Below, piece by piece: positions 5,860 through 59,541 of a stretch of DNA of 64,000 bases (the stretch's first letter is position 1; each line of letters begins with the position of its first letter). The position numbers and the translations under genes are program-made. This DNA is from Tortispora ganteri. Taxonomy: Eukaryota. Location: assembly GCA_003707115.1 (NCBI GenBank), contig PPNB01000002.1:620001-684000 (forward strand). The letters run 5' to 3'. Under the pieces are notes generated by a model. It was not told the origin of the DNA. It was given only the letters and a program-made list of their open reading frames with translations, and did not search any database.

Positions 5860-6069
5860 ATTAATAACAGTGAATATTAAATAGTGAACGTTACTTAGAG
5901 GGTTTGGTTATATAAAGGTGTACTATATTCATCAAAAAGGGTAACTACATAGTTGGCATAGCAACCTGAAGCAAGCAAAAGTGTGAAGAAAAAATTAAGA
6001 TCTCTGAAAACCCTCCCTCTAAACGAAATTTTCGCTTACTTATAACTAAGGGTATTTGTTTTTGCGAAG

Positions 6070-9792: not shown

Positions 9793-9835
9793 ATATAATA
9801 ATGCAAAAGTGAAGATTTTCTCCTCCCAATAATAC

Positions 9836-17984: not shown

Positions 17985-17988
17985 AGTG

Positions 17989-35470: not shown

Positions 35471-36424
35471 TCAAATGATTTGTGTCTTTGATTTGACAAG
35501 ACCACCAGAGAAGTTGCGCATGATATGAGAACGTGAGTTCCGATCCTGAATTCTGTGGAAAGCTTGACGCACATGACGGGGTTCAATAGCAGACACTTGC
35601 TTTTCTGGTCCACTAAACAAGAAATGATCATGAGGCTTACGGTCTGGAGATTCATATCGCTTGTTTTCAATTGCTCCGACCAATAAAGCCTCTCCGGTGA
35701 GAATCTCGACCATGTCAAAAGTCAGAAACCCGAGAATATCCATGATATCGTCATTAAGTCTGCCTTCAACAACTTGCGTAGTACGGGCCCATTCCCTGAA
35801 CCTCTTAGCTTTACGATAAGTAAAAGATGCTTGGCGGCATTCTGACCAGTGAATGTATTCTTCTCTTGTCATTTTACGGGTCTTTTCGTCTGCAACTTTT
35901 AGTCTCACCATTGTCGCTAGGTTCTCCTCCTTGTCAAGATCTTCATCATCGTCATCCTGTTCAGGTACACGTTCTGGAAACATACAGACAAGTTCCCAAG
36001 AAAGTCTAAGCGATTTCTTTTTGCGAGTTTGAGCTGTACCGGCAGCTGCACGTTTCCCGGGAGCGACATCGCCTGCTGCTAGTTCCTCCTCGTCTTCCTC
36101 CTCTTCTACAATATCAGCGTCACCGCCATCCTGTTGGCTTTTAGCGCGCTTTCGAACGTCTTTCCAGCCGAGAAATGTGCGCAATCGAGATATTTTTGCT
36201 TTATCGTGACGGATCTGGAACATGAGATCTTCAGTGGATATACTGCGTGCACCTCTGCGGCTAGCCAACTGCCCGGCCTGACTCAAGATCTCAATGACTT
36301 GCGATCTCACAATATCCTCGATCAACGCGGTAGTTTCCGGTAGTGGATCATTAACTTCTCCTGCAATAAACATCATCTGCTGAATTTCTACTTTGTATTT
36401 GTATTTGTCTTTGTCCTTATCCAT
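35471..36424 (-). CDS. SPT3: SAGA subunit Spt3
   Basis: YKVEIQQMMF, MTREEYIHWSECRQASFTYRKAKRFREW and DILGFLTFD motifs. ATG at 36424. Confidence 0.96.
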   Translation of the reverse strand: MDKDKDKYKYKVEIQQMMFIAGEVNDPLPETTALIEDIVRSQVIEILSQAGQLASRRGARSISTEDLMFQIRHDKAKISRLRTFLGWKDVRKRAKSQQDGGDADIVEEEEDEEELAAGDVAPGKRAAAGTAQTRKKKSLRLSWELVCMFPERVPEQDDDDEDLDKEENLATMVRLKVADEKTRKMTREEYIHWSECRQASFTYRKAKRFREWARTTQVVEGRLNDDIMDILGFLTFDMVEILTGEALLVGAIENKRYESPDRKPHDHFLFSGPEKQVSAIEPRHVRQAFHRIQDRNSRSHIMRNFSGGLVKSKTQII

Positions 36425-36498
36425 TTTGACGGGGTTGGTAAATGGTAAGTAACGTCGCTGGGGAACCTTCATGGTTCACCCACATACACACTCAGACA

Positions 36499-37749
36499 AT
36501 GAAGAAGATCAGCGATTACACGAAATGGACACATGGCGATCTTATAAGAAGAATCAATGAGCTCGAAAAGGCTATTGGAAAGCGCATGCCTACTGTCGCA
36601 CCGAAAATCACGAACACTCCTGAACTCGAAGCCAAGCTGTTTGCCAATACCCGCCATGTTGCGCTAAAATTTTCGTACTTCGGATGGAGCTACAATGGGC
36701 TGGCAGTTCAAAAAGAGCCGACGCCGCTTCCGACAGTCGAAGGTACAATTTTAGGAGCTTTGGCTAGATGCAGATTGATCCCGCAAGCGGCAGAGTACGA
36801 GCCCGAACTGGTCGATTTCAGTCGTGCCGGACGTACAGACAAGGGAGTGTCAGCACGCAGTCAAGTAATCAGTCTTAAAGTACGGAGCTTGCTGAACAGA
36901 GAGCAGCAGATGGACCCGACATTTGATGAACATGAACTTAAGTACACACATATGCTGAATAGTTTACTACCTGAAGATATACGGTTCTACCAGGAGTGCC
37001 TGCGGCCCCCAGCAGGGTTTGATGCACGGTTTTCCTGCAAGTCTCGGCGATATCGGTACTTTTTCTTTGCACATGATCAATTTGGCGCGCCTTTTGTGAA
37101 TATACATCAGATGCAAGTGGCCGCTGCGCTCTTTAAGGGTGACCATGACTTTAGAAACTTCTGCAAGGTAGATGGATCAAAACAAATCACGAACTTTGTA
37201 AGAACGATATATGATTCGCAGATCATCGAGATCTCTAAAGATGCGACGACAGGCCGGACATTGTACGCATTTGATTTGCATGGAAGTGCATTCCTGTGGC
37301 ACCAGGTTCGGAGCATGATCGCGGTCCTGTTTCTGATTGGACAGGGGCATGAAGAACCACGAATTATTGAAGAGCTGTTTGATATAGACAAGTACCCGGG
37401 TAAGCCAGGCTACATTATGGCTGAGGACTTCCCCCTGGTGCTCTGGGATATAACTTACGGTGCAGATGTTGTGTGGCAAGATTGTTCACGGGACACAAAG
37501 ACCATGCAGTCGCTGAGTGATTGTTTTTATAACCAATGGTATTCGACGGCTGTACGAGGAAGCATTCAACACCAGATCGGATCGACCGTGGTACAGTCAG
37601 CGCCAACCCAAACACATATGCGCATAGTGACTGGTGGCGGACTGGGCTGCCCACTACGCAAGTACGTGCCATTGAAGGACAAACCTAGAGGACTAGAACC
37701 TGAGGAGGTCAACATGAGATTCAGAAAAAGAAAAATAAGAGATGATTAG
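36499..37749 (+). CDS. DEG1: tRNA pseudouridine(38/39) synthase
   Basis: RHVALKFSYFGWSYNG, RAGRTDKGVSA, FDARFSC, HDFRNFCK and GSAFLWHQVR motifs. Confidence 0.94.
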   Translation: MKKISDYTKWTHGDLIRRINELEKAIGKRMPTVAPKITNTPELEAKLFANTRHVALKFSYFGWSYNGLAVQKEPTPLPTVEGTILGALARCRLIPQAAEYEPELVDFSRAGRTDKGVSARSQVISLKVRSLLNREQQMDPTFDEHELKYTHMLNSLLPEDIRFYQECLRPPAGFDARFSCKSRRYRYFFFAHDQFGAPFVNIHQMQVAAALFKGDHDFRNFCKVDGSKQITNFVRTIYDSQIIEISKDATTGRTLYAFDLHGSAFLWHQVRSMIAVLFLIGQGHEEPRIIEELFDIDKYPGKPGYIMAEDFPLVLWDITYGADVVWQDCSRDTKTMQSLSDCFYNQWYSTAVRGSIQHQIGSTVVQSAPTQTHMRIVTGGGLGCPLRKYVPLKDKPRGLEPEEVNMRFRKRKIRDD

Positions 37750-39835
37750 CTTAGCGAAAAACAGTTGAACTGTTGGTAAAGTTCTGCTAACTCAGAGTTT
37801 AAATGCACCTTATTTGGAATAACATTTGCACGACATAACTCTGATCGAACTATTAATAATGTCTAAAGTCTGTTTTATAAGATACAAAGTATCAAGCGCT
37901 GAATTAAATGCTTAATTGATCGATCAATTAGCACCAAAATATTGGTGCTAGTCAGAATGAAATTATCTTTAATTGCATTGCAGCAAAACTCAATATACAA
38001 TCAAGGGAAGCTGCTAATACTACAAGGCGAGACTTTCAGGGGCCATGTGAGAAAGAGTTATCTAGAAATCACACGTTGGTCATTCACCGACTTACCTTAT
38101 GTACAACCGCATATTGAGAAATTATGGCTCATCAAAACAGTTATTGCGTTATATGCTGCCGAATATATCATATTAGGAATCTTTGCCGCGGTGGAGTATG
38201 CGCAAGTCAATAATGCCCAAATTTCTTTTACGCTCTATCATCTGCATTAAGATCCACAGAATTAACCAGGAACTAACTCTATTAATCGAAGCCGATGAGA
38301 ACATTCGCAACAAATAAAGCAGCCTTTATTTAAGTGCTCTTATTCGTGCTGATAACGTAAAAAAAGGGCCGCTTTAGGTTACGCATCTGATATCCTAGCA
38401 CCCTTAAAGGCCGATCGTGCATAATCCTCATAACATCCAAACATTTGGCCAAACGACTTCGCTATTGCCTGCGAATTTCGCAAGATTTCCATTATTCTCC
38501 CCGATTTTTTGTATCCCTCTAGCTAGCCAAGTTCTCTGCAGCATTCCGGCTATGCCGTAGACCTGCAGGAGCAAAATTAGCGTTTACATATAACCTTATA
38601 TTATAAATTTGAACCAACATTCCAATCAACTTCATCCACCTTGTCGACCAATCCGGTAAAACTATGGGGAAATATGCGTAATTCTGTTGATGGTTACTGT
38701 GACAACCATCAACAGGCTTGTATGCTGGTTTTTTTTTGTACGATTGTTTAAGCGTCTCATACGAGCGGAAAACTTTACGGCCGTACCCGCATTGAACCGC
38801 TAAGAACGCATTACGCATCCTGCGCTGAAACCTCGGTATGAACATCGCATGCATAGACTTGAAATATTGACATTCACAGAATTTATCGCCAATGATCGCT
38901 ACCTATCAGTAATACTATGTCAACAATTAATTGTTTGTAATACCGAGTCTGAAGCATTTCCGATCACATTAATAATCTGAACTAGCTTCTCCCTAATGCT
39001 TTTATCGGAAATCCATAGCGATTTTTAATACAGCCACTCATGCGCTTGAAAATAAAAATATACTTTAATGTTCTCCTCATTCGGCTTTTACAAACTCTAA
39101 CTTTAGTGGCAAAAATAAAAACATGAAAGGAAAAAAGTTTTCATAACCAACTTACTCTTTTACTCAAAGTTCGCAGCAAGGTTTAAATCCTCCTGCCAAT
39201 TCTAATCTTCCTTCTTATACACTTTCTGTACGAGAAACGCGAAGAGGTTGGACAAACATACAGCGCTTCAATCCTCTTTCAAGCTATTTGTTTCTAAATC
39301 TATCTTCTTCAATTTTCCCCGTTCATCCTTCTTCCCCTTTTTGCTCGAACATACCCTTTGACGTTAACCTTTTTTACGAACAAAGGCCCGTCTCTCCTTC
39401 TTTGTCATCCTTCTTGTCTCGTTTCCGAACTTTTATTTTAAACAGTCTGATTGAAACTGTTGCGTTCGACTGCACATCTCACTAATCGCTTGGACTCAGT
39501 AAACTAATTACTAGTAAATTGACCATCGATCTGCACTTGACCTGCTAATATCGCGCGCTTCATCTCTAATCTATTGGTTGTCAGTTTGTCGATAACAATA
39601 CAGCTTTATCGTCAACGGTACTAAAACAACAATTCCAACAAAACTATCAATCTTGATTTTGTTTTATTGGCTGGATTTATCCCTTGAGATCGAACGTACT
39701 ATTCTATTCGAGTAACCGTTCCATAATCTTTTTCTCGTTTTCGGTCCTGCATATATATATCAATTCGAAAGGATATTTCCTTAACACACTCCCCCCTTAC
39801 ATATAGACCTACTTAGTGTTGCATTTTCTTCACTA

Positions 39836-41779
39836 ATGGCCTCTAACGTATCACAAGATCCTCAACGCGACCAGCAGCTTCAGAATCCAATGACAGCTCA
39901 CTCCGCATCCACAAACCGTATGTATGCCGGATACTCAGCGCCGAACTCAAACGTGCTTGCTCCTGTAGGCCTTCCACAGGCTCCGCAGAATCAAGGTTTG
40001 CAACCGACTTTTACCGGTTTTGTCTCTTCAACTCAGGATGCTATACTTCTTTTCCAGGCCTGCTTGAATGGTGTTCTGCAGCAAGTATCTCGTCGTCCTC
40101 ATGATCGCGAACGGTCCTTCCTTATCAAGTCGGGATCTATTTTTATTTTTAATGAGGGTTCTTCCGGTATCAAGCGTTGGACTGACGGTATTGCCTGGTC
40201 TCCTTCACGTATATTGGGCAACTTCCTTGTGTATCGCGAATTGGAAAAACCTTTTGCCCCTGGCGAGAAGAAGCGTGCTACGCGTCGTCGAAGAGCTAAG
40301 AAGAAAGGTGAACCTTATCACATGTCAGACGCTCCTGATGTCATGGAACATCGTGAGATGCAGGTAGCAGCTGCCGCTGCAGCTTCTGCCTCCTCAAATC
40401 CAGCATTACGCCCTAATGACCGTGGTCCTGGTGGTGACGTGGATGCTGAACGGGCCTTAGTCGGTTCTCTTGTTGACTCGTATGGTTTTAAAGAAGGTGG
40501 TCTCATCAAGAAAACACTCTCTGTAACCATCAATGACATTCATCATCACCTGGTCTCTTATTATCGTCCAGAAGATGTTGTGAATGGTTCTTTGAAATGC
40601 CCTTCTGATTTCCCTTACCTTAAGGAACTTCATATTTCTCCGGAGTTAACGCAGCGTCAGAACTTCAGAATACCTCCAGATGGTTCTGCAGGTATTGAAC
40701 GTGTTGTTATTCCTCAATCTGGTGGACAAAGTCAAAGCCACGGTCACAGTGGTATGTACCAGGGAGGTGGTGCTCCTCCTACCGCTCCTGTGGGTGCTTA
40801 CGAAGGCTATGGTCAAGACATGACAGCTAATGCTCCATATGCAGAGGGATATGGTAAAAACTTTTTCGGTGGTGCTTCTAATAGCATTGTTGGCCCAGGT
40901 GGATATCATCAACCGACAGCTCCAGTCCAACAACCGTACGCTGGTTATATGTCTCAGGGTGGTGCTGTGGCGCCGAACATGTATGGAAATATTAAGCCTG
41001 ATTACTATGGTTCAGGCACCGAGTATGCAGGTCAGTCTTACGTAGCTGGCGCCGGCGGTGCAGGTGCAGGCGGTGGTGGCTGGTACGATGCCGGTCATCA
41101 TGATGGTGCAGGCGGCCACCTCAGCCAAATATCACCGGCTCAGCAAAATGAGTATTTAAGACAACAGCAGAATCGACGAGGTTCATCCGTGCATAATGGT
41201 ATGCCTCAACAACCCCCGTACGGGGGACAGGCTCCTCAACAGCAGCCCCCAAACTTGCAGCGCGGCCAGGCGCTCCCCCAGCCGGGCCCAGCGCAACAAC
41301 AGGGGGTCCAGGGCTCTAATTCTCAATATGAGAGATATCAGCCAGGGTCTGGAGGTGCACAGTATGGCGCCGGTAATACTTACAATGCCGGACGTTCAGG
41401 TGAGTACCCCAGTGCTGGACAGCCGATAGGCTATCAATATTCTTATGGCGGTAGTGCTGGCGGTGGCGGCAACACGAGCAGCGGTGTCGGAAGTAATGCT
41501 GCTGGCAGTAATGCTAACAGCGGTGGTGGTGACGGTAGCTCGAGACCTAATACCGGTGATGAAGGCAACTGGCGTGGAACTTGGAATGGACCTGGATCAG
41601 CTAGTGGAAATATATCGTCACAGCCTGCGACTGGTGCTCAACGCGGTGCACCGGGTTACGAAGGATCAGTACCTTCATCTGGTTCGCAACAACCTTCTGG
41701 CAGTGGAGAAATGGGTGAATGGTGGAACCAGTCGAAACCAGCTGTTCAGACAGCAGCACCAACTGCGCGTGGAAGCTAA
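39836..41779 (+). CDS. WOPR (Gti1/Pac2) transcription factor of the Wor1/Mit1/Ryp1 type
   Basis: PTFTGFV, RRPHDRER, IKRWTDGIAWSPSRILGNFLVYREL and LVDSYGFKEGGLIKKT motifs. G/Q/Y-rich tail and a 2-kb upstream region. Confidence 0.93.
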   Translation: MASNVSQDPQRDQQLQNPMTAHSASTNRMYAGYSAPNSNVLAPVGLPQAPQNQGLQPTFTGFVSSTQDAILLFQACLNGVLQQVSRRPHDRERSFLIKSGSIFIFNEGSSGIKRWTDGIAWSPSRILGNFLVYRELEKPFAPGEKKRATRRRRAKKKGEPYHMSDAPDVMEHREMQVAAAAAASASSNPALRPNDRGPGGDVDAERALVGSLVDSYGFKEGGLIKKTLSVTINDIHHHLVSYYRPEDVVNGSLKCPSDFPYLKELHISPELTQRQNFRIPPDGSAGIERVVIPQSGGQSQSHGHSGMYQGGGAPPTAPVGAYEGYGQDMTANAPYAEGYGKNFFGGASNSIVGPGGYHQPTAPVQQPYAGYMSQGGAVAPNMYGNIKPDYYGSGTEYAGQSYVAGAGGAGAGGGGWYDAGHHDGAGGHLSQISPAQQNEYLRQQQNRRGSSVHNGMPQQPPYGGQAPQQQPPNLQRGQALPQPGPAQQQGVQGSNSQYERYQPGSGGAQYGAGNTYNAGRSGEYPSAGQPIGYQYSYGGSAGGGGNTSSGVGSNAAGSNANSGGGDGSSRPNTGDEGNWRGTWNGPGSASGNISSQPATGAQRGAPGYEGSVPSSGSQQPSGSGEMGEWWNQSKPAVQTAAPTARGS

Positions 41780-44179: not shown

Positions 44180-45782
44180 CTCTATACACATTATCCAAAG
44201 CAACCGCTGCATAGAACAGCATCTCACGAATTCTTTTTTTTTATGACTACCAGCACGTATTGAGCAAATTAACGTGCGAAATCTTAAAGAACATTAAAAC
44301 TAACTTGATATACCTGCTACAAGTAGCGAAATATGTATATGTATGACGTAATTCTTTTGCACATATCTGAACTTGCCAATATTTCTTATTTGGGAAGTCG
44401 GTTGTAACTGTCAAAACAGAGCTTGATTTCCACCCTTAAACCGTTAGTGCCGAAACATACCGAACGATAATTTTACTTGCTTTGCACCTACCACATTGTA
44501 AATTAAGCATGAATATAATTTTGTAAATTTCATTTTTTAATGCCTTGAAAGAGCGATTCTAGCTATTGTGCTAGCGGGAAGGATACATTACGTCAATTGC
44601 TGCAGCTACACGCAACACGCACTTGCGAGTTCTTCTTTAGGCTAGTATTGTTTAAATTCAAAATATCTTGTGCGAAATCACATGCGAACAAATCGAAAAA
44701 CATAAAAAGCTCAACTATAATATCTGAGTCTTAATAATGAGTATTCGCTTCACCTCGATGGTCTACATTATCATTGACCACATGCTTTCTCAAACCGTAC
44801 CGCTAGCTTTTATATGACAACAAACAAACTATGAATTTATGATTTGCTCTCATACATAATGTTGTCATTCATATCAGTTAATTTGGGCTATAATTCATGG
44901 TATACGCTATTATTGCAGACGATAAGGGTTCTTTATGTCGGATAATACTGTTAATACGGCTATGAAAGTTCCAAAAAATTGGCGAATCGTTACCTTTTAA
45001 CCTTATTTATGGAAGAACGTTTACGAGCCATGTTTGGTATTTAAGGTTTTCATAGTAGCCATTTTCAGCCTCTTACCCTTCGGTTTGGAGGGGCTAGCTA
45101 GTATTTAAGCTTTAGCCATTTTAATGGTTGCACACACACCAACAAAACCTTCAACTTCAACTCTACTTTACCTTCTCGCTCCCCTTTCAACTTTCTTCTT
45201 CTGTTCACCTTGATAAACAGCATCTTATTTGATCGCTTTTGAGGTTGCTGCTGATATATACTTCCAAGTTTTTATTAAACAGCTACAGAAGCACTTATTT
45301 TCGTACTCTTATAACCCTACGCTAATATATATTTGCTTCTATTTCATTGCCATTACGAAGTCACTGGCCCCCCTTGTCAAATTTCTCCTTGCCTTATCAC
45401 CATCAGGCAAACTCAATTATCAGACGCTTAGGCAAAAAGTTTCTGATTTACGTGGTTTTGTGCTTCCAATTTGCGCTTTCCAGAAAAGTAACTACCTTTT
45501 ACTCCAATAACAACACGTCGTTTGGTCCGGTTCAACTGGATTCGCCAACTTGTACGCAATTACTACATCACCGCCAAATTACTAAGGTTTTACTGGTAAG
45601 GTTCATTCATATTTGAATTTTAACCCCGGGTCTTTATTATATTTTGGGGATTATTTGCTTATTCGGTTTCTTCTCCCCATTGTTCCTATTTGGTGACTCA
45701 GCCTTTGCGGTTCTTACTCACATATCCTTCGCGTTTCGGGAAAATTATAAGCCTGCTTTGTTATATCGGTTAGTTGCAAATA

Positions 45783-47660
45783 ATGTCTTACTCTCGCCCT
45801 ATGATACATCCTAGTGCTCATGGGCAACGGGTAAACGAGTTGTTGGACGCAATCAAACATGAATTCGATTCTATAACCTCGGAAGCATCTGTTTATAGAA
45901 TGCACAAAGATGAGTTGGACCATAAATCATCTCAACAAGTTCACGAAATGCAACAAATTCGTCAAACTATTTACGACTTGGAAACTGCGCACCGTAAAAT
46001 GCAAGAACGTTATGATGAAGAAGTCGCTCGTCTTAAGCGCGAGCTAGAGAACGCTCTCGCCTCGAGCGGTTCCTCTGGTCAGGGACAAACTCAACGCCAG
46101 CAACCCGTCCCAATGCCACATCCTCCTGTATTGAGACACTTCAACACTGTCTTTGGTGGAATTATGGGAAACCAGAGTAATGGCACCAACCAACCTCCGA
46201 CTCACCCTTCTCAACCACAGCAGCCGCAACAACAGGTGCAACAGTTGCAGCAGCCACAACTACAGCTTCACCAACAGCAGCAACTGCAACAACATCAGCA
46301 GCAACAGCAATTACAACAACGGCTGCCTCCTCAGCCTCAACAATCTCAACAACAGTTGCCGCAATCACAATCTCAACAAACCTTGCACCCTCAGCAACCT
46401 CCTCAACAAGCTATCACAGGTTCAGTAGATCAGCCTATGCCTCAAGCATCAAACTCTTCTACGGGCCCTGATGGTCCTCCTATAGTCGATAGTGGGTATT
46501 ATAATGCTTATCCACCTGGAAATAAGTCTGCTGTTGCAGATGCCACGGGGACTAGTAACGTCAATGTCCCAGGCAGTGCGCGTGCTTCTGGCCGGCCTGA
46601 AGAAAAAGCAGAAATTGCTCATGACGGAGCTGCTTCTGATCCGGATAAACTGTATAAGAAGCATGAGGGTGATTGGTACGTATTGTATAACCCACAGGCT
46701 CCGCGAGTACTCGATGTCAACTTAGTTCATACTCTGGAACATTCTTCTGTTGTTTGTTGTGTGCGTTTCAGTGCTGATGGTAAATTTGTTGCTACTGGAT
46801 GCAATTTTTCTGCTCAAATATTTGACGTTCAAACAGGTCAGAGAATCTGTGTATTGCTTGCTGATAAAGGCAATCGTGAAGGAGATCTGTACATTCGTTC
46901 TGTTTGTTTCTCACCAGATGGCCGCTATTTAGCGACTGGGGCTGAGGATTGTCAGATCCGGGTCTGGGACATAAAAACGAAAACTATTCAGCATGTGTTT
47001 AAAGGACATGAGCAAGATATTTATTCATTGGATTTTGCGCGAGATGGAAGACGCATTGCTTCTGGATCCGGTGACCGCACTGTGCGACTGTGGGATTTAG
47101 ATAACCAAAATTGTCTTCTTACCCTAACTATTGAAGACGGTGTGACAACCGTAGCGATTAGTCCTGACGGCCGATTCATTGCGGCTGGATCACTGGATAA
47201 CAGTGTTCGTATATGGGATGCTAATACTGGTCTTTTAGTTGAAAGGCTGGAAGCGCCAGGAGGACATTTGAACTCTGTATATTCCGTTGCATTTGCGCCT
47301 AATGGAAAAGATCTTGTCTCTGCGTCGCTTGATAAAACCATCAAGTACTGGGAATTGCAATCGGCTAGAGGGCTTCCTACGCATCAGGGAGGTGTTTGCA
47401 CCAGAACTTTTACGGGACACAACGACTTTGTTTTATCTGTTGCATTGACACCTGATGGACATTGGGTGTTTTCAGGAAGCAAAGATCGATGTGTGCAATT
47501 TTGGGACCCCGTAACGGGACAGAACCAATTGATTTTGCAAGGACACAAGAATTCTGTTATTTCAGTTGCCCCTTCGCCTGCTGGGCATCTTTTTGCAACT
47601 GGATCCGGCGACTGTCGCGCCCGTATATGGCATTATACCTATGTCGATGGACGGAGGTGA
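45783..47660 (+). CDS. TUP1: General transcriptional corepressor Tup1
   Basis: N-terminal RVNELLDAIKHEF coiled coil, a polyQ linker and WD40 repeats (HSSVVCCVRFSADG, DLYIRSVCFSPDG, GHEQDIYSLDF). Confidence 0.97.
   Translation: MSYSRPMIHPSAHGQRVNELLDAIKHEFDSITSEASVYRMHKDELDHKSSQQVHEMQQIRQTIYDLETAHRKMQERYDEEVARLKRELENALASSGSSGQGQTQRQQPVPMPHPPVLRHFNTVFGGIMGNQSNGTNQPPTHPSQPQQPQQQVQQLQQPQLQLHQQQQLQQHQQQQQLQQRLPPQPQQSQQQLPQSQSQQTLHPQQPPQQAITGSVDQPMPQASNSSTGPDGPPIVDSGYYNAYPPGNKSAVADATGTSNVNVPGSARASGRPEEKAEIAHDGAASDPDKLYKKHEGDWYVLYNPQAPRVLDVNLVHTLEHSSVVCCVRFSADGKFVATGCNFSAQIFDVQTGQRICVLLADKGNREGDLYIRSVCFSPDGRYLATGAEDCQIRVWDIKTKTIQHVFKGHEQDIYSLDFARDGRRIASGSGDRTVRLWDLDNQNCLLTLTIEDGVTTVAISPDGRFIAAGSLDNSVRIWDANTGLLVERLEAPGGHLNSVYSVAFAPNGKDLVSASLDKTIKYWELQSARGLPTHQGGVCTRTFTGHNDFVLSVALTPDGHWVFSGSKDRCVQFWDPVTGQNQLILQGHKNSVISVAPSPAGHLFATGSGDCRARIWHYTYVDGRR
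46212..46410 (+). repeat. Q/P-rich CAA/CAG coding repeat in TUP1
   Basis: Imperfect CAG/CAA runs. Confidence 0.85.
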
Positions 47661-48326
47661 TTGAAAGAAATCAAATAACAAGTGTAAATTATCTATCCGA
47701 GTTCGCGTTTCTTGGTTGAAGACTGTCGTGAAGACCGCGAGCCATCCCCCCGCTCCGCAATACATAAACGCATTTGTTACCAGCTCTTCTGCTACCCGTT
47801 GCACTTGAAAATCCTTGTCTTTTTTTTTTTTTTTGGTCACGAACAGTAATAATTATGCCAAAGAGTAGTTTGCTTTTTCTTTCAAGATCGGACTTGCCCA
47901 CGTTTCTCTAGGTCTCTCCACCATCACGTGACTGAATACCCTTAACTGACATAATTATCGGCTAAATTGCTAACTGTATTTACACCCCCCACCATCGGTT
48001 ATAATCTGTACACCATCTGAAACTGACGTACTGTGATCAGTGTGACTGTATATTTAAGCCTTTGTTTCCATAGTTTTTCTTGTGGTGCCGTTTGTATCGC
48101 AGGTTATTTACTCGCTCGTGAAGCCTGCTGATTGGCCGGTCTCTTTATCTACCCGAGACCGATCACGGATATCACTACCGTCGTAATCACAAGTCCAACC
48201 TTTTTTCAAGCGCAGCAGGCTTTTCTGTGCATTAATTTGGCTGTTTTTACGCTTAATAGTATTAATAAAGTGTGTTTTATTCTATTTATAGTATTACTTT
48301 TGTGAATCTTCGAAAGTGGAAACAGT

Positions 48327-49748
48327 ATGGAGTTTTCTGATTTGGATGGCGTCGAGTTTCCCTTTTTTCCAATATCGGAAGATCACGGTCAACCCCTTGA
48401 TCTGAGCTCTGTCTTTAATATTGACGAGTACACCGAGAAAGCTCCTTTGACATTACTCGGAGGTACCTTTGACGTGAATGTGTCTAGCCCTGCACTGTCT
48501 GTGCCGGAAGCGAGCTCTTATCAATCATCCGATGCAGTCTCCACTACGAGTCCCTCTAGCCGCACATCTGGCCAGAAATACAGCCCTACAGTTTTTGAAG
48601 TTTCTTCTCCGCCAATGAACTCATCTGCTGCTGAAAGCTCTCTGGGTGTTAAAATTCAGCCATCGACCGCCATTGCTAGTCCATTTGCGCCTATCACCGC
48701 GCAGACGCAACAGCTGGCAGGTTCCGGTTCTTCTCTGCACGTCAGCGATCTTCCTAGTACATCTGACCGTCAAAGAAATCAGTACTTATCTGGTAAAATC
48801 CAGCGCTCCCTCCCGGGTGACGACAAGCAATTCATCCAGAAGCAAGACCTAGACGTGCATGCAGGAATGCATGCACGTGGCACGCAAGAGAACCCCGACC
48901 AAAGATTCAGCCAGGCCAGTAGATTAGATGTTACTGTGCGTCCTCAAAACTTTGAAAAAATGCAGGTATGTGATCTGTGTGGAGCAGAGTTCAAGAGCCC
49001 CGGCGCTTTTCGAAACCATCGTGCTGGGCACGAGCAAAAGAAACAGTTTATCTGTCGCCTCGGTAACTGTACAAAGGCGTTTACGCAATCAGGAAATCTG
49101 AGGTCTCATCAGATAAAGATTCACGGTGATATCGTCAGACAGCTTACTCAGCGCTTCGAGCGTTACTCGGAAGATCGGCTGGTCGAACTTCCACCTAATG
49201 AAAGAGACTTGTTTTTATATTTTATAGGCATCCACAGGAGATCTCGTGGGCCCAAGCCGCGAAATCGCGACGCCTCTTTAAGTTTCAGAACGACGTATCC
49301 TAATACAGCCGGTGTAAGGCATATACAAACGATTGGCATGTCCTCTATGGGTGTATCCGATTCAATGACTACTACTACGCGTTCTGGTGACGCGAATGAT
49401 ATACCCCAATACGATTTAGCTACTATTGTGGATGGAGTGGATTTATTGAGTGAATTCGAGTATGGACTGAAAGAGTACTATGCCCAACCTGCTGGTGCAA
49501 GTAGAGTTGCAGAGCCAACTCGCCAGTCGGAGCCGAGTTTAGCGAAGTCTGCTCGTATGACCTACATTAGACCTGACAGAGTTGTTGAGTCATCACTGGT
49601 TGGTGGACTTAATAATGATGTTGGTGGACTAATAATTCCACAAGAGCAACTGGATGGTTTACGACATACAAATGCAAGGTATATTATGCCTTCGCCTAAT
49701 GGAATGACCAATCCCGAATTTGACTATTTCGAAAGCGGTACATTTTGA
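48327..49748 (+). CDS. Azf1-like C2H2 transcription factor with two intact fingers
   Basis: FICRLGNCTKAFTQSGNLRSHQIKIH followed by LTQRF...ERDLFLYF, which matches the Azf1 last finger and post-finger helix. Confidence 0.8.
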   Translation: MEFSDLDGVEFPFFPISEDHGQPLDLSSVFNIDEYTEKAPLTLLGGTFDVNVSSPALSVPEASSYQSSDAVSTTSPSSRTSGQKYSPTVFEVSSPPMNSSAAESSLGVKIQPSTAIASPFAPITAQTQQLAGSGSSLHVSDLPSTSDRQRNQYLSGKIQRSLPGDDKQFIQKQDLDVHAGMHARGTQENPDQRFSQASRLDVTVRPQNFEKMQVCDLCGAEFKSPGAFRNHRAGHEQKKQFICRLGNCTKAFTQSGNLRSHQIKIHGDIVRQLTQRFERYSEDRLVELPPNERDLFLYFIGIHRRSRGPKPRNRDASLSFRTTYPNTAGVRHIQTIGMSSMGVSDSMTTTTRSGDANDIPQYDLATIVDGVDLLSEFEYGLKEYYAQPAGASRVAEPTRQSEPSLAKSARMTYIRPDRVVESSLVGGLNNDVGGLIIPQEQLDGLRHTNARYIMPSPNGMTNPEFDYFESGTF

Positions 49749-54827: not shown

Positions 54828-54933
54828 CTGGTCTTTTTGTTTTTTTTTTCCTTTTTTTGGTGAGTTGTGATCGAAGGTGAAGTGTACTACATCGTATCCT
54901 TCCCAGCAAGGATGTGCCCTCCCCACAGCTTGT

Positions 54934-57117
54934 TTAATCACTATTGCGATATCCAAACTTCACCGCACCTTCTGTCTGTTCAGGATACTGTCGCACAAGA
55001 TAAAAATATGTCAATTGTTTATAATTCTCTTCGCTCTGTTGGTATTTCGCCGTGTTTGATGTGTCGGCAATAGCTAGCCACGGTTCTCCAAGCTTAAAAT
55101 CGCTGTTCACATAGATATCTGATATAATTGACATATTTTGCTGTCTCCATTTTCTTCCGTGAAATGCCATTTCAGCTTTGAAAATCTTGAGTGCGTATTT
55201 CCGTAATTCTGGGTGATCAACAAAAAGATAATGGCTTAACGATAGTGTATGGTCAGTACGCGAAGATGCAAACCTCACCAAGCGGAAAGCTTTCTGTTTT
55301 ATTAACTTGTGCATAATTCTCAAAAAATCAACAGCCCAAGTCAGTCTCAGCCATGAGAAATATCCGTCATCGCCTTCCGGTATGACCAGCTGGCTGGCAG
55401 TCATGTTCGGGATCTTAAGCACTGAAGTCAGCCACACTGAACTAGGTCGCGTTGAAGCTAATAAGAAAAACGCAGGAGGATCTCGAAATAACACCTGAGA
55501 AAAAATTCTTAGTGCTCTAGAATCAACTAAAAGCGTGGCCATATACTCAAATTTGAGCACATGACTTCTTTTAGACCATTTTAAAAACAAAAGGAGGTAT
55601 TCCGAAATAGATCTAAGTACAATATCCTGTGAGCGAATAGTATCTTCACTAGCATAATTCATTGCACCATTACCTTGTGTGTGATGCGTATTTTTCTCTT
55701 CGATATACTGAATGACAGTCAAAAGAGAATCAAGAATCATGGCTACCATAGAGGGTAAGTACCGCAATGAAGAAGCATATAGCGATTCGATCAGATCCAA
55801 AGTATCGGAAATGTAATCATCCGTACATATCATTTTGCTTACCTCTTTTGGGAGTTCAGACTTGAATCCTTGATTGATATTCCATTTGTGAAGTATAAAC
55901 TTCTCATCAATGATCTGTTTTTGAGAAGCGGACATGTACAAAGACGAGTTGAGTAGTTCACATGCCTCTTTGATAGAAGCTGGTGCCTCGCCCTCTCCAG
56001 AGAAAAGAAAAGGATAGTCTTGGTTTGTTTGGAAAATTCCTTTTCTAACCTTATGCCCACCCGGAGAGTGATCCATCTGATTGTTATTGCTCTGAGACAG
56101 TAAAGGCTGAGACGAGATCGTCAGAGAATCTGAGTTGTGCGCTAGTTGAGCAGAAGAAGAATTAAAGGACCGTCCTTCAAGGATCTCTATAGGTATCGGG
56201 TTTGCAGGTGGTGTCAGGATAGGATACTTTGAAGTGATCTGGTGGCGGAAAGAACTGTATGTGAGAAGAGATGCAGACAAGTCAGATTTGGAGTCCCGGT
56301 TTTGTGATACACCATTAAGTTCATTAAGAAGTAATCTAGATTTCTCAAGATCATCAAAATTTCCAAATGCATATTGTATTAGGGTATTAAGGAGAAGGAA
56401 GAATTGCTGCAGTGGGATATCGACATCTGTGATTGCACAAGCATCAGCCATTATTCGTATCAAAGATGATAAGACATCTGTAGCTAGTCGTCTATAGCGA
56501 ATAGGTTTAGGCTGATCGGAATGGAGAAGAACTTGGAAAATGACATATAGGACTGACATGGTAGAAAAAAACACTCCTCTGGATAGGTGTATAGTTTTAG
56601 TAGACTCTGGAGACGATATATGGAGAGATTGAAGATTAAGGGTAGATATTGTGTGCTTTGAAATGAGCAAGCTCATTGTATCAAGGAAGGTAGGTAGTGA
56701 CAAGCAGAGAGCCACGTCGTTTCTAATTGATGAGATGAGCTCTTCTAGAGAAGAATATGTTCCAGATAACCCGAATAAGAGCGCAGATAAAGCTTGAATT
56801 GCTAAACTTATTGAGTTCGTAGACGAAGAGCGGCATCTGGAGAGTAGGGTGTCGATAGTTGCTAGTTTAAGATCAGGAGACAATGATTGCCAGTCAGACG
56901 AGTTAGTTAGAGAATTGAGAGTCTTAGCGGAGTTTTTCTGGATATGCGATATTATGAGGGATTCAGATGCAGAGAACCAAAGGTCAATTTCTATATGCAA
57001 AGATTGCATGTGTGTGTATTCTAACTCTAGAGGTTTTGAAGCGGAAATGGGGAGATCTGAGTTGTATGCATCGGGCCCGTTTGTGAGTAATTCAGAAACG
57101 ATATCTGGATCATTCAT
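54934..57117 (-). CDS. FAR11: STRIPAK subunit Far11/STRIP (N1221 family)
   Basis: EIDLWFS, FQTNQDYPFLF, PASIKEA, LKWSKRSHVLKFEY and GRKWRQQNMSIISDIY motifs. Confidence 0.88.
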   Translation of the reverse strand: MNDPDIVSELLTNGPDAYNSDLPISASKPLELEYTHMQSLHIEIDLWFSASESLIISHIQKNSAKTLNSLTNSSDWQSLSPDLKLATIDTLLSRCRSSSTNSISLAIQALSALLFGLSGTYSSLEELISSIRNDVALCLSLPTFLDTMSLLISKHTISTLNLQSLHISSPESTKTIHLSRGVFFSTMSVLYVIFQVLLHSDQPKPIRYRRLATDVLSSLIRIMADACAITDVDIPLQQFFLLLNTLIQYAFGNFDDLEKSRLLLNELNGVSQNRDSKSDLSASLLTYSSFRHQITSKYPILTPPANPIPIEILEGRSFNSSSAQLAHNSDSLTISSQPLLSQSNNNQMDHSPGGHKVRKGIFQTNQDYPFLFSGEGEAPASIKEACELLNSSLYMSASQKQIIDEKFILHKWNINQGFKSELPKEVSKMICTDDYISDTLDLIESLYASSLRYLPSMVAMILDSLLTVIQYIEEKNTHHTQGNGAMNYASEDTIRSQDIVLRSISEYLLLFLKWSKRSHVLKFEYMATLLVDSRALRIFSQVLFRDPPAFFLLASTRPSSVWLTSVLKIPNMTASQLVIPEGDDGYFSWLRLTWAVDFLRIMHKLIKQKAFRLVRFASSRTDHTLSLSHYLFVDHPELRKYALKIFKAEMAFHGRKWRQQNMSIISDIYVNSDFKLGEPWLAIADTSNTAKYQQSEENYKQLTYFYLVRQYPEQTEGAVKFGYRNSD

Positions 57118-57584
57118 TGTTTTTTATGGTCAATCTCTTCAATAGTTTTAGATATTTGTAATTTTGTATCTTCAGAAAGAGCGGGATCCTTTAATAGAAG
57201 AGATAGTTTCTCTATTTGGCGGATATGTGCAGACTTACGAGCCTTTTTTGTTGCTTGAGCTTTACGTTTGCGTAGTAGATCAGCTTTTAAAAGGGAATGA
57301 CTCTTGTCACCGTTATAGTGTATATCCAATGCCTCTGCAAGTCTGTAACGGGCTATACGGCGATTTTCTTCGCGGGATCTAGAATCCTGGCAATAAACTA
57401 TGAGACCTGTTGGAATGTGCTTTAGCTGTACCTTGCTATTAGTCTTGTTAATAGCTTGGCCACCTGGACCTGAGCCTTTTATGAACGATTCTGTTATTTC
57501 AGATTCGTCTATTATCCTTGGACGAGGTGGGAGCTGTTTTCTGGCAAGCAAATGGGTGCAAGCAGAGAAGCGGCGATACCACAT
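57114..57584 (-). CDS. PTH3: Mitochondrial GGQ peptidyl-tRNA hydrolase / ribosome rescue factor (C12orf65/Rso55 type)
   Basis: FIKGSGPGGQAINKTNSKVQLKHIPTG and SREENRRIAR motifs, with a presequence and a basic tail. Confidence 0.85.
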   Translation of the reverse strand: MWYRRFSACTHLLARKQLPPRPRIIDESEITESFIKGSGPGGQAINKTNSKVQLKHIPTGLIVYCQDSRSREENRRIARYRLAEALDIHYNGDKSHSLLKADLLRKRKAQATKKARKSAHIRQIEKLSLLLKDPALSEDTKLQISKTIEEIDHKKQ

Positions 57585-57699
57585 TGACGTGGGGTGTTTT
57601 GTTATAAAGTGGGATGGGAAAGGTTGACTTTTATACCAATAATAAGGGCATTTTAATCTGATTGTTTTTTTAGACTAAACCTGATTTTATAGAAGGAAA

Positions 57700-57976
57700 A
57701 TGAGTAAACCTATTAGTTTAACCGGTCTAATTCGAAGAAAATGTTATCACATTTATACTCTAACACCTGCTGTTTTATTTACGCAGAAGGAGAACAGGAT
57801 CATAGGTATGTATATATGAAACGATGGTTTACGAAGTTATGGACGCTTTATTAACAATATAAGGATCAATTCTACTGATATTAAGTAGTTTATTTTTGTG
57901 GACATTATATACATATTTTCCATATGGTATTGACACGTTAATTAGTAACATGAACTATTATATTACGGGTAATTGA
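57700..57976 (+). CDS. Serine palmitoyltransferase small subunit (ssSPT/Tsc3-like), 72 aa; exons 57700-57805 and 57864-57976 (not in the ORF track)
   Basis: The spliced product is MSKPISLTGLIRRKCYHIYTLTPAVLFTQKENRIIGSILLILSSLFLWTLYTYFPYGIDTLISNMNYYITGN. The 58-nt intron reads GTATGT..TATTAAC..AAG. One TM helix and a Y.P...YYI.G tail. Confidence 0.75.
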
Positions 57977-58042
57977 AATATATACTAACGGATGGACTAC
58001 CTAAAACCCCTTTGTAGAGTTAGACTTTGACTTCACTAGAAT

Positions 58043-58702
58043 ATGAAAGTATACATTGTGCGACACGGAGAGACTAACCACAATCTACAGCGGATCTATC
58101 AAGGTCAGTTGGATACAGAGATTAATGCTGTAGGTAAGGATCAGGCTAAAAAGTGCAGTCGACGTACGGACTTGGCCGATGTAGAGTATGTATATTCTAG
58201 CGATCTGAAACGGTGCCGAATGACTAGCGAGCTTTTGTTTGCCAAGCACAAAAACCTTGGGCTCATAGAATACGATTCGCGACTAAGAGAGAGGTACATG
58301 GGTGCCTTGCAGGGGATGTCTATAGACGAGGGCCGTGTTCTACTAGCCGCTGAGCATAAGGGTACCTCTGATTATGGCGAAAGTAAACAAGAGATGGATA
58401 ATCGATTACTGGACTTTTGGGATTCTGTTATTAAGAAAAATGCGGCAGATAAAAAATACGAGAAAATATGTATTGTTACACATGGTGGTGTTATCAACAA
58501 GCTGCTTTCACTGTTAGTGAATGAGAGACGAACATATGATTTGAATATCCCCGAAAGCTCAATAAGAGTGCCAGGAAATACTTCAGTAACTGTTATTACT
58601 ACTGATATTGATAGTGACGGTGAATTATATGGAACTATAGATTTAATGGGCGATATAAGTCATTTAAGTTATCACGATATGGTGGATCAGGAACTTAGAT
58701 AA
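58043..58702 (+). CDS. Histidine phosphatase (phosphoglycerate mutase superfamily)
   Basis: RHGET, SSDLKRC, LRERYMG, VTHGG and NTSVT motifs. Confidence 0.92.
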   Translation: MKVYIVRHGETNHNLQRIYQGQLDTEINAVGKDQAKKCSRRTDLADVEYVYSSDLKRCRMTSELLFAKHKNLGLIEYDSRLRERYMGALQGMSIDEGRVLLAAEHKGTSDYGESKQEMDNRLLDFWDSVIKKNAADKKYEKICIVTHGGVINKLLSLLVNERRTYDLNIPESSIRVPGNTSVTVITTDIDSDGELYGTIDLMGDISHLSYHDMVDQELR

Positions 58703-59541
58703 TGATCAGTTTCAAGAAACGGAAGAAATTTGATAAAAGTGAACCGAAATTTAACAAAAGTGAATCGAAATTTGACAAAAGTGAATCGAAACTTGTATAT
58801 AATTCGGAAGACACTAAAGAATTAAATATAAATAATATAAATGAAATAGAATCTGATGATATAATACATGTGGCTAAGAAACTGAAACAAAAGAATGTAC
58901 AACTGTTGAAAAAGGGGCAAAATGATTTAAAGAACGACACTATATCGGAATTTAATAAAGATGATTCTGAAAACACCGATCATGTAATTCAAACAAAAAA
59001 TAACGATGATTCTTCTATAGAGAAAGATAAACAGAATGAAATTGAATCGATAGAATCTAATGATTTAGTATCTATTGATCCTACCTACAAAGGGCAAAAC
59101 AATTACAAATCATTCACTCATACAAATTCCAAAAAACTGAAAACATATTCGAATATTGATTTAACTACATACACAGATTATCAGCCAGATATATGCAAAG
59201 ACTACAAACTAAATGGTTATTGCGGATATGGCGATAACTGCAAGTTCCTGCATTTGCGTGAAGATTTCAAAGCCGGCTGGCAATTAGATAGCGACTGGGA
59301 CAAATTTGTTAAATCATCAAAATCTATATCTGACCCAAAAAAGGATATAGAAATCCCTTTTAAATGCGTTATATGCAAAAATGATTATACTGATCCTGTT
59401 GTGACCGCATGTGACCACTACTTCTGCGAATTGTGTTTCCTTAAGAGATCCAAGAAGACAGCATCATGCTTTGTATGTGGAACAAACACCAACAGATCAG
59501 CTAAACCAGCCAAAAACTTGCGCGATCTATTAAAAGCATGA
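58702..59541 (+). CDS. CWC24: Pre-mRNA splicing factor Cwc24 (CCCH and RING domains)
   Basis: N-terminal FKKR, DYQPDICKDYKLNGYCGYGDNCKFLH and IPFKCVICK...CDHYFCELC motifs. Confidence 0.95.
   Translation: MISFKKRKKFDKSEPKFNKSESKFDKSESKLVYNSEDTKELNINNINEIESDDIIHVAKKLKQKNVQLLKKGQNDLKNDTISEFNKDDSENTDHVIQTKNNDDSSIEKDKQNEIESIESNDLVSIDPTYKGQNNYKSFTHTNSKKLKTYSNIDLTTYTDYQPDICKDYKLNGYCGYGDNCKFLHLREDFKAGWQLDSDWDKFVKSSKSISDPKKDIEIPFKCVICKNDYTDPVVTACDHYFCELCFLKRSKKTASCFVCGTNTNRSAKPAKNLRDLLKA
58726..58791 (+). repeat. 3 x 21-bp coding tandem repeat in CWC24
   Basis: AAATTT[G/A]A[T/C]AAAAGTGAA[C/T]CG x3, encoding KFDKSEP-KFNKSES-KFDKSES. Confidence 0.9.

What the first reader, a model, noticed from the sequence alone, without database searches (positions are those of the whole stretch)
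57100..57130. ATGA overlap between the mitochondrial release-factor homolog PTH3 and FAR11
Seen on the minus strand: ...AAACA-ATGA-ATGAT. The PTH3 TGA (57116-57114) overlaps the FAR11 ATG (57117-57115). The next FAR11 Met (aa 37) lies inside the LEY..M.SL..EIDLWFS segment, which resembles the start of the N1221 domain, so the overlapping ATG is the likely start. A short upstream ORF followed by a long downstream ORF suits reinitiation (inference).
Basis: partly seen in the sequence, partly recalled or inferred. Interest (0 to 1): 0.72.

Follow-up and report, generated by a model that had tools for sequence, protein, structure and literature searches.

The report
Overlapping PTH3–FAR11 genes, likely one mRNA
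In a very compact yeast genome, a small mitochondrial ribosome-rescue gene ends inside the start codon of the signalling-scaffold gene FAR11, and the sequence suggests that both proteins may be made from one messenger RNA by ribosomes that sometimes skip the first start codon.

Summary
On the minus strand a 156-codon RF-1/GGQ ORF (57584..57114) ends in TGA 57116-57114. That stop overlaps the ATG (57117-57115) of a 727-codon Far11 ORF (N1221 + DUF3402). The small ORF is closest to human C12orf65/mtRF-R, the Pth3 family.

The overlapping ATG is the Far11 start:
- An in-frame TAA lies 3 codons upstream.
- Homology to other Far11 proteins begins at residues 15-36, before Met37.
- The Tortispora caseinolytica orthologue (89% identical, 727 aa, no gaps) starts at the same residue. 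Its second residue is Thr (ACN), so ATGA is kept.

Reinitiation is not the best-supported mechanism. The locus carries three marks of leaky scanning:
- No ATG in any frame across the 467 nt between the two start codons. No sliding window in the other ORFs is ATG-free (0 of 10,120), and a family-aware null gives P about 0.01.
- The PTH3 start context ranks 41st of 44.
- The FAR11 start context ranks 1st of 44.

No transcript data or relatives' DNA could be obtained, so one bicistronic mRNA versus a FAR11 promoter inside PTH3 stays open. I estimate about 0.55 versus 0.3. Bicistronic leaky scanning is known in green algae and Drosophila. My searches found no report of it in Tortispora.

The parts
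57114..57584 (-). PTH3-type gene: 156-codon ORF for a mitochondrial GGQ (RF-1 domain) ribosome-rescue factor of the C12orf65/mtRF-R family. It has no internal ATG in any frame.
   Evidence: PF00472 E 1.1e-22, aa 25-123; GGQ visible in the translation. (7a5h_C C12orf65, E 5.1e-24). (ATG only at ORF offset 0 and at offset 467, which is the FAR11 ATG).
54934..57117 (-). FAR11 (STRIPAK scaffold) gene: 727-codon ORF starting at the overlapping ATG.
   Evidence: N1221 E 3.5e-35, DUF3402 E 8.6e-54. (T. caseinolytica orthologue: 644/727 identical, 0 gaps, same start). (homology begins before Met37).
57114..57117 (-). ATGA: the FAR11 start codon (57117-57115) overlapping the PTH3 stop codon (57116-57114). 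The FAR11 frame is -1 relative to the PTH3 frame.
   Evidence: sequence; ORF ends.
57118..57581 (-). ATG-free stretch: no ATG in any frame between the PTH3 ATG and the FAR11 ATG (467 nt start to start). Proposed to act as the scanned leader of FAR11.
   Evidence: (6th longest of 2,206 ATG-to-ATG gaps in the window; geometric P 3.0e-4). (0 of 10,120 sliding windows in 43 other ORFs are ATG-free). (family-aware P about 0.011).
57582..57590 (-). PTH3 start codon in a poor context (T at -3).
   Evidence: context. (T at -3 in 8 of 44 ORFs, A in 22 of 44). (leave-one-out context score -2.28, rank 41 of 44).
57112..57123 (-). FAR11 start codon in the best context of the window (A at -3, A-rich upstream).
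   Evidence: 8 of the 12 upstream bases are A. (score 2.88, rank 1 of 44).
57585..57651 (-). Upstream region of PTH3. It is ATG-free for 67 nt up to an ATG at 57651 that opens a 6-codon uORF, and holds a TATAAAAG-like element at 57635-57628, 51 nt before the PTH3 ATG. A promoter role is inferred, not shown.
   Evidence: sequence only.

Best explanation
PTH3 and FAR11 are two intact, conserved genes pressed together in a compacted Tortispora-type yeast genome until the PTH3 stop came to lie inside the FAR11 start codon. FAR11 is translated from that overlapping ATG. Most likely the PTH3 coding sequence doubles as the 5' leader of FAR11. Transcripts begin in the short promoter region upstream of PTH3 and carry both ORFs. 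Some scanning 40S subunits initiate at the poorly placed PTH3 AUG and make the low-abundance mitochondrial rescue factor. The rest pass it (leaky scanning, or some transcripts start just downstream of it), meet no other AUG for 467 nt, and initiate at the FAR11 AUG in its very good context. Shown: the overlap, the gene identities, the FAR11 start, the ATG-free stretch and the two start contexts. Inferred: the single transcript and the leaky scanning itself.
For: (1) No ATG in any frame lies between the two start codons. The other 43 ORFs carry 7.2-28.1 internal ATGs per kb, and 0 of 10,120 codon-aligned 464-nt windows in them are ATG-free. Back-translating the homologous ~155 residues of 118 usable of 120 Pth3 relatives with this window's codon usage gives a mean P(ATG-free) of 0.011, with 4.4 ATGs expected. 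None of 17 fungal-like metagenomic Pth3 relatives has an ATG-free ORF (1-17 internal ATGs). (2) In this window long ATG-free runs mark leaders. Of the five other runs of 434 nt or more, three end exactly at start codons after long intergenic spaces (a WOR1-like Gti1/Pac2 gene, TUP1, a C2H2 factor). One ends at the NOP56/58-type start and runs partly antisense through the neighbouring gene. (3) The PTH3 AUG context ranks 41 of 44 and the FAR11 AUG context 1 of 44. (4) These are the marks reported for proven leaky-scanning bicistronic loci in green algae: weak ORF1 Kozak-like sequence, depletion of start codons before ORF2, and some loci with overlapping stop and start codons (PMC11291117, abstract and passages; PMC7896298, passages). 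(5) The arrangement seems conserved. T. caseinolytica Far11 starts Met-Thr, which keeps ATGA, and the 36 residues before Met37 are 27/36 identical with no gap. (6) No T. caseinolytica Pth3 protein of 85-273 aa is in the protein collection although its Far11 is. This fits a one-locus, one-model annotation, but other explanations are open.
Against: No transcript evidence of any kind could be obtained. The ATG-free signal is weaker than it first looks. 47 of 120 Pth3 relatives have no internal Met. The conserved GGQ core (150-204 nt) is ATG-free in 15 of 17 fungal-like relatives. Given this protein's sequence, only 1.5 out-of-frame ATGs are expected, P(0) = 0.108. The honest figure is therefore about 1 in 100, not 3 in 10,000. 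The context scores rest on only 44 first-ATG ORFs, some of whose starts may be miscalled. The A-rich FAR11 context is also the Lys-Lys-Gln coding end of PTH3. A second genuine overlap in the same window (histidine phosphatase / CWC24, TAATG at 58700-58704) has 16 ATGs in its upstream ORF. This genome must therefore also express a downstream overlapped gene in some other way, probably from a start site inside the upstream gene. Functional bicistronic mRNAs for two conserved proteins are rare in budding yeasts; this is my own knowledge, and Kominek et al. (bioRxiv 10.1101/399394, passages) attribute earlier yeast cases mainly to inefficiencies in the transcription machinery.
Confidence: 0.55

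Rival explanations
1. Two separate, overlapping transcription units. FAR11 has its own promoter and start site inside the 3' part of the PTH3 coding region, and PTH3 mRNA is polyadenylated inside FAR11. The ATGA overlap is only a by-product of genome compaction, and the ATG-free state of PTH3 is chance plus family composition.
For: The window is very compact: 79% in ORFs, and tandem gaps of only 106 and 109 nt must hold both a terminator and a promoter. The histidine phosphatase / CWC24 pair overlaps (TAATG) although the upstream ORF has 16 internal ATGs, and CWC24 has no other in-frame Met and is colinear with S. cerevisiae Cwc24 from residue 10. Internal start sites, or something equivalent, must therefore exist in this genome. 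Much of the ATG poverty is a family trait.
Against: It does not predict an ATG-free stretch that runs exactly from the PTH3 ATG to the FAR11 ATG (family-aware P about 0.011; 0 of 17 relatives' ORFs are ATG-free). It also does not predict the very poor PTH3 start context (41 of 44).
Confidence: 0.3
2. Termination-reinitiation. Ribosomes translate PTH3, terminate at the TGA, and the 40S subunit stays on the mRNA and restarts at the overlapping AUG.
For: The ATGA stop/start overlap is the classic geometry of coupled termination-reinitiation. The FAR11 AUG context is excellent.
Against: The upstream ORF has 156 codons, far longer than ORFs after which eukaryotic ribosomes normally reinitiate (general knowledge, recalled). 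No TGGGA motif lies on the sense strand of PTH3 (the motif is recalled from calicivirus TURBS) and the junction has no special structure. The model explains neither the ATG-free ORF nor the weak PTH3 start context. In green algae, altering the ORF1 context changed the ORF1:ORF2 ratio, which argues against reinitiation in the closest known system (PMC7896298, PMC11291117, passages).
Confidence: 0.07
3. The coding overlap is not real. Far11 starts at Met37 (57009) from transcripts beginning downstream of 57117, and the first 36 codons are untranslated.
For: The first 36 residues are less conserved than the rest (75% against 89% identity to T. caseinolytica).
Against: Homology to distant Far11 proteins starts at residues 15-36, and a conserved block (Pro29, Tyr34) lies upstream of the non-conserved Met37. 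There are no indels or stops in the 36 codons between the two species. Met37 has C at -3 and is preceded by two out-of-frame ATGs.
Confidence: 0.04
4. A -1 ribosomal frameshift or transcriptional slippage on the run of six A just before the junction fuses Pth3 to Far11. The FAR11 frame is -1 relative to PTH3.
For: Frame geometry only: a -1 shift within the second AAA codon would bypass both the TAA in the FAR11 frame and the TGA in the PTH3 frame.
Against: There is no canonical X XXY YYZ heptamer in the PTH3 frame and no stable downstream structure (z +0.57). Runs of A are expected in a Lys-rich tail. No fused form was seen among 429 Far11 relatives of any length or among the Pth3 hits.
Confidence: 0.02

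Closest known systems
Nuclear bicistronic loci of green algae translated by leaky scanning (Gallaher et al. 2021, PMC7896298; Leaky ribosomal scanning preprint 2024, PMC11291117)
   Same: A small upstream ORF is followed closely by a longer ORF on one strand. ORF1 has a weak start context, start codons are depleted before ORF2, and some loci have overlapping stop and start codons (passages read). All three sequence marks are present here.
   Different: In the algae the single transcript was shown by Iso-Seq, and the mechanism by proteomics and mutagenesis. Here nothing is shown at the RNA or protein level. The lineage is a budding yeast, and my searches found no report of such loci in Tortispora. 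ORF1 here has 156 codons and is an enzyme with a conserved domain.
Drosophila stoned and Snapin bicistronic loci (as cited in PMC11291117; the original paper was not read)
   Same: The upstream ORFs are deficient in internal AUGs and have non-consensus start contexts, and the downstream ORF depends on leaky scanning (passage).
   Different: These are animal loci that I know only second-hand. Whether their ORFs overlap was not checked.
Viral termination-reinitiation at overlapping stop/start codons (calicivirus TURBS type; recalled, no paper read here)
   Same: The same ATGA-type overlap of stop and start codons.
   Different: It needs an upstream 18S-complementary motif. The recalled pentamer is absent, and that model makes no demand for an AUG-free upstream ORF.
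Overlapping transcription units in compacted eukaryotic genomes such as microsporidia (recalled, no paper read here)
   Same: Extreme gene density, with neighbouring genes sharing sequence in their transcripts. This window has 79% of its bases in ORFs and tandem gaps down to -4 and -1 nt.
   Different: In those genomes the overlap is usually seen as a passive by-product. Here the upstream ORF carries marks of selection for scanning through it.

Membership tests
Pth3 / C12orf65 (mtRF-R) mitochondrial GGQ rescue factors | RF-1 (peptidyl-tRNA hydrolase) domain with a GGQ motif | tested here: met
   PF00472 E 1.1e-22, aa 25-123. GGQ is visible in the translation.
Pth3 / C12orf65 (mtRF-R) mitochondrial GGQ rescue factors | Closer to C12orf65 than to ICT1/Pth4 or to full-length release factors | tested here: met
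   The top two solved relatives are human C12orf65 (7a5h_C, E 5.1e-24) and its mouse homologue (2rsm_A, E 4.3e-21). RF1/RF2 score at E 1e-11 or worse, and no ICT1 chain is listed among the 45 hits. That Pth3 is the yeast homologue of C12orf65 comes from the abstract of PMC7940416.
Pth3 / C12orf65 (mtRF-R) mitochondrial GGQ rescue factors | Small protein without codon-recognition domains, with a basic C-terminal tail and a mitochondrial presequence | tested here: inconclusive
   The protein has 156 aa, a Lys/Arg-rich tail and an Arg-rich N-terminus, all visible. No targeting predictor was available.
Far11 / STRIP (STRIPAK scaffold) | N1221 domain followed by DUF3402 | tested here: met
   PF07923 E 3.5e-35 (aa 30-311) and PF11882 E 8.6e-54. 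429 relatives at E <= 0.001.
Bicistronic mRNA translated by leaky scanning | One capped transcript carries both ORFs | not testable with these tools
Bicistronic mRNA translated by leaky scanning | Weak start context at ORF1, stronger at ORF2 | tested here: met
   Leave-one-out context scores: PTH3 ranks 41 of 44 and FAR11 1 of 44. T at -3 against A at -3.
Bicistronic mRNA translated by leaky scanning | Depletion of AUG in all frames between the ORF1 AUG and the ORF2 AUG | tested here: met
   0 ATG in 467 nt. 0 of 10,120 control windows are ATG-free. Family-aware P about 0.011. 0 of 17 relatives' ORFs are ATG-free.
Bicistronic mRNA translated by leaky scanning | Arrangement conserved in related species | tested here: inconclusive
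   T. caseinolytica Far11 has the same start, and Met-Thr keeps ATGA. Its DNA and its PTH3 could not be examined. None of the 25 distant metagenomic loci has Far11 beside the Pth3 relative.
Termination-reinitiation | Overlapping or adjacent stop and start codons | tested here: met
   ATGA at 57117-57114.
Termination-reinitiation | Short upstream ORF, or a TURBS-like 18S-complementary element upstream of the junction | tested here: not met
   The upstream ORF has 156 codons. No TGGGA lies on the minus strand within 57117-57584 (motif recalled). No notable structure.

The most novel reading that the evidence does not exclude
A budding yeast (Tortispora lineage) uses a true nuclear bicistronic mRNA. 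The coding sequence of the mitochondrial ribosome-rescue factor Pth3 has been purged of AUGs so that it serves as the scanned leader of the STRIPAK scaffold Far11, and the ratio of the two proteins is set by the weak first start codon. If this is conserved across Tortispora and repeated at other loci, leaky-scanning polycistrony would be a recurrent outcome of genome compaction in fungi as well as in green algae.
Probability: 0.45. Interest if true: 0.65.

Novelty: new member of a known kind. Interest (0 to 1): 0.5.

Why it matters
Budding yeasts are the textbook case for 'one mRNA, one protein'. A natural locus where two conserved, unrelated proteins share one mRNA by leaky scanning would extend a mechanism now established in green algae to the Saccharomycotina. 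It would show how extreme genome compaction is accommodated, with coding sequence reused as a leader. It would also explain why the small upstream gene appears to be missing from the protein set of the sequenced relative. In practice, annotation pipelines that keep one model per locus will lose such upstream genes. If instead FAR11 has a promoter inside PTH3, the locus is an ordinary by-product of compaction.

Tried and rejected
- Whole genome of the window: none is held, so no genome-wide count of overlaps or ATG-free upstream ORFs was possible.
- RNA evidence: no RNA holder was listed for window 54900-57900, so read laying could not be used.
- Earlier notes of this scan: nothing by place or by sequence. 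A word search returned two Ostreococcus cases with the same reading. I took them as leads only.
- Far11 relatives by word search: only T. caseinolytica was found, both with the whole protein (1 hit among 7,996 scored candidates) and with residues 1-130 (1 hit among 426 candidates). The full HMMER scan was needed to see distant relatives.
- Pth3 in T. caseinolytica: not among 343 hits of 85-273 aa (best 120 listed).
- Synteny in metagenomes: 25 loci with Pth3 or release-factor relatives (42-65% identity). None has a Far11 match (0 tblastn hits). L018-L025 look like bacterial RF1-type or other non-orthologous genes, so I left them out of the '17 fungal-like' counts. L001-L011 are close to one another and L013/L014 are identical, so the 17 are not independent.
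- The simple geometric P of 3.0e-4 for the ATG-free run: rejected as too optimistic after the family controls.
- Absence of internal Met as evidence: rejected, because 47 of 120 relatives also lack it.
- Intron reading: one GTAAGT lies inside PTH3 (near 57237), but I saw no CTAAC-type branch site downstream by eye. Reading straight through continues the basic Lys/Arg-rich tail and lies within the Pfam RF-1 match (aa 25-123), so no intron is proposed.
- Frameshift fusion on the A6 run: considered and set at about 2%.
- Literature: searches for Tortispora with 'overlapping genes', with 'polycistronic', and for 'bicistronic' + 'leaky scanning' + 'Saccharomycotina' found no report of this locus or of such loci in Tortispora. 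The search for the fungal polycistronic-transcript paper I recalled did not list it, so it is not cited.
- Supplementary files were not opened.
Full report
**What is there**

On the minus strand a 156-codon ORF runs 57584..57114 and a 727-codon ORF runs 57117..54934. The junction reads ...AAAAAACA-ATGA-ATGATCC. The ATG of the long ORF (57117-57115) shares two bases with the TGA of the short one (57116-57114). The long ORF's frame has a TAA three codons upstream of its ATG (57126-57124).

The short ORF has an RF-1 domain (E 1.1e-22) with a GGQ motif. Its best solved relative is human C12orf65/mtRF-R (7a5h_C, E 5.1e-24), well ahead of full-length release factors. The long ORF has N1221 (aa 30-311, E 3.5e-35) and DUF3402 (E 8.6e-54), the Far11/STRIP architecture.

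**Where the window comes from**

The only close relative of the Far11 protein in 5.8 billion proteins is a hypothetical protein of Tortispora caseinolytica NRRL Y-17796. It has 727 aa, 644/727 identical residues and no gaps. The window is therefore from a close relative of that species (inference).

T. caseinolytica has a 9.2-Mb genome with 4,657 genes and is described as comparatively intron-rich (PMC5499181, passages). In the window, 79% of bases lie in 44 ORFs. I kept these 44 out of the 59 ORFs of 100 aa or more. The 15 dropped were the open-ended duplicate of the first ORF, 13 ORFs nested in or antisense to longer ones, and one ORF running off the window's end. Introns were not modelled.

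The 18 same-strand neighbour gaps are -134, -4, -1, 106, 109, 133 ... 2086 nt. The overlap sits in a generally squeezed genome.

**Is the overlapping ATG the Far11 start?**

Yes, on four grounds:

- There is no in-frame ATG between Met1 and Met37, and a stop lies just upstream of Met1.
- The Pfam N1221 match starts at residue 30. In a full HMMER scan of 1.84 billion representatives (429 hits at E <= 0.001), I picked out 15 distant Far11 proteins from the 150 listed whose best-scoring stretch begins at query residues 15-36.
- Aligning those 15 with the two Tortispora proteins shows a conserved block (Pro29, Tyr34, then E..WF) that spans Met37. Met37 itself is not conserved. All 15 relatives have longer N-terminal extensions, so Tortispora Far11 is trimmed to the minimum.
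- The T. caseinolytica protein starts at the same residue, and 27 of the 36 residues before Met37 are identical with no gap. Its second residue is Thr (ACN), so ATGA, and with it a TGA in the PTH3 frame, is inferred to be kept.

In addition, Met1 has the best start context of the 44 ORFs. Two out-of-frame ATGs (57113, 57071) lie between Met1 and Met37.

**What points to a mechanism**

Between the PTH3 ATG and the FAR11 ATG there is no ATG in any frame. This 467-nt run is the sixth longest of 2,206 ATG-to-ATG gaps on both strands of the window.

Five other runs are 434 nt or longer. Three end exactly at start codons after long intergenic spaces: a Gti1/Pac2 (WOR1-like) gene, TUP1 and a C2H2 factor. 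One ends at the start of the NOP56/58-type gene and runs partly antisense through its neighbour. The remaining two lie antisense within genes. Long ATG-free runs that end at a start codon therefore behave like scanned leaders in this genome.

The other 43 ORFs carry 7.2-28.1 internal ATGs per kb, and none of 10,120 codon-aligned 464-nt windows in them is ATG-free. These windows overlap, so they amount to only about 110 independent samples.

**Controls that weaken the signal**

- 47 of 120 Pth3 relatives have no internal Met, so the lack of Met is a family trait.
- Given this protein's sequence, only 1.5 out-of-frame ATGs are expected, with P(0) = 0.108.
- The GGQ core (150-204 nt) is ATG-free in 15 of 17 fungal-like metagenomic relatives.

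**Controls that keep it**

- The density of ATG-prone dipeptides is 0.96 per 100 codons here against a median of 2.31 in relatives. Only 5 of 120 are as low.
- Back-translating the homologous ~155 residues of 118 usable relatives with this window's codon usage gives a mean P(ATG-free) of 0.011, with 4.4 ATGs expected.
- None of the 17 fungal-like relatives has an ATG-free ORF; they have 1-17 internal ATGs. These 17 are not independent.

My estimate is about 1 in 100, not the 3 in 10,000 of the naive model.

**Start contexts**

A leave-one-out position score over -6..-1 and +4..+6 ranks the FAR11 ATG 1st and the PTH3 ATG 41st of 44. PTH3 has T at -3, as do 8 of the 44 ORFs, while 22 of 44 have A.

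A weak first start, a strong second start and no AUG between them are the features reported for proven leaky-scanning bicistronic loci in green algae. Some of those loci also have overlapping stop and start codons (PMC11291117, abstract and passages; PMC7896298, passages).

**Against reinitiation and other ideas**

- The upstream ORF has 156 codons.
- No TGGGA (a recalled TURBS motif) lies on its sense strand.
- The 201 nt around the junction fold no better than shuffles (z +0.57).
- A -1 shift on the A6 run would enter the FAR11 frame. There is no canonical heptamer in frame, no stimulatory structure and no fused homologue.

**Against my reading**

There are no RNA data. A second true overlap lies 1.6 kb away. 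The histidine-phosphatase ORF (58043..58702) ends in a TAA whose last base starts the CWC24 ORF (58702..59541). CWC24 is colinear with S. cerevisiae Cwc24 from residue 10 and has no other in-frame Met. That upstream ORF has 16 internal ATGs, so leaky scanning cannot serve there. A start site inside the upstream gene, perhaps with a mini-uORF ending at the TAATG, is the likely solution, and it could apply to FAR11 too.

**Verdict**

The mechanism is most likely scanning through an AUG-free PTH3 ORF on a shared transcript (0.55). An internal promoter is the main rival (0.3) and reinitiation is unlikely (0.07). This would be a new member of a known kind if true. My literature searches found no report of it for Tortispora. 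Transcript-end mapping and the DNA of related Tortispora genomes would settle it.

Noticed in passing
window 58043-59541 (+): A second same-strand stop/start overlap. The histidine-phosphatase-family ORF ends in TAA 58700-58702, and its last A is the first base of the CWC24 ATG (TAATG). CWC24 has no other in-frame Met and aligns with S. cerevisiae Cwc24 from residue 10 to 9, so this start is real. The upstream ORF has 16 internal ATGs; the nearest (58679, in frame) would give an 8-codon mini-uORF ending at the overlap.
   Followed up: partly
window 57700-58046 (+): A candidate spliceosomal intron in the 5' region of the histidine-phosphatase gene: GTATGT at 57806, TACTAAC at 57983-57989, TAG ending at 58017 (212 nt). 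If it is spliced, an upstream ORF starting at ATG 57700 would end in a TGA that overlaps the gene's ATG at 58043, which is again ATGA. It would also leave only about 100-200 nt for the divergent PTH3 promoter. Seen by eye and not tested.
   Followed up: no
window 39123-39836, 45124-45783, 47855-48327, 5636-6070 (+): Very long ATG-free stretches (713, 659, 472, 434 nt) end exactly at the start codons of a WOR1-like Gti1/Pac2 gene, TUP1, a C2H2 zinc-finger gene and a NOP56/58-type gene. They suggest long AUG-free 5' leaders on regulators.
   Followed up: partly
window 17196-18741 (-): The first-ATG ORF of an UNC-50 family gene overlaps the upstream ABC-ATPase ORF by 134 nt. The UNC-50 domain starts only at residue 85, and this ATG has the worst start context of the 44. 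The true start is probably a later Met, or an intron is involved.
   Followed up: no
window 9295-9837 (-) / 9836-11464 (+); 35471-36472 (-) / 36442-37749 (+); 18792-19706 (+) / 19701-20423 (-): Opposite-strand ORF overlaps: divergent by 2 nt (RPA34-like / CLP1-like) and by 31 nt (TFIID 18-kDa-like / pseudouridine synthase), and convergent by 6 nt (short-chain dehydrogenase / Sld7-like). These are further signs of compaction or of miscalled first ATGs.
   Followed up: no
protein collection: No Tortispora caseinolytica Pth3 protein of 85-273 aa is present although its Far11 is. The small upstream gene may have been dropped from that genome's annotation.
   Followed up: partly
window 7060-7633 and 41194-41678 (-): Two long ATG-free runs (573 and 484 nt) lie antisense to the NOP56/58-type and WOR1-like genes and do not end at any ORF of 100 aa or more. 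They are unexplained and may be chance.
   Followed up: no
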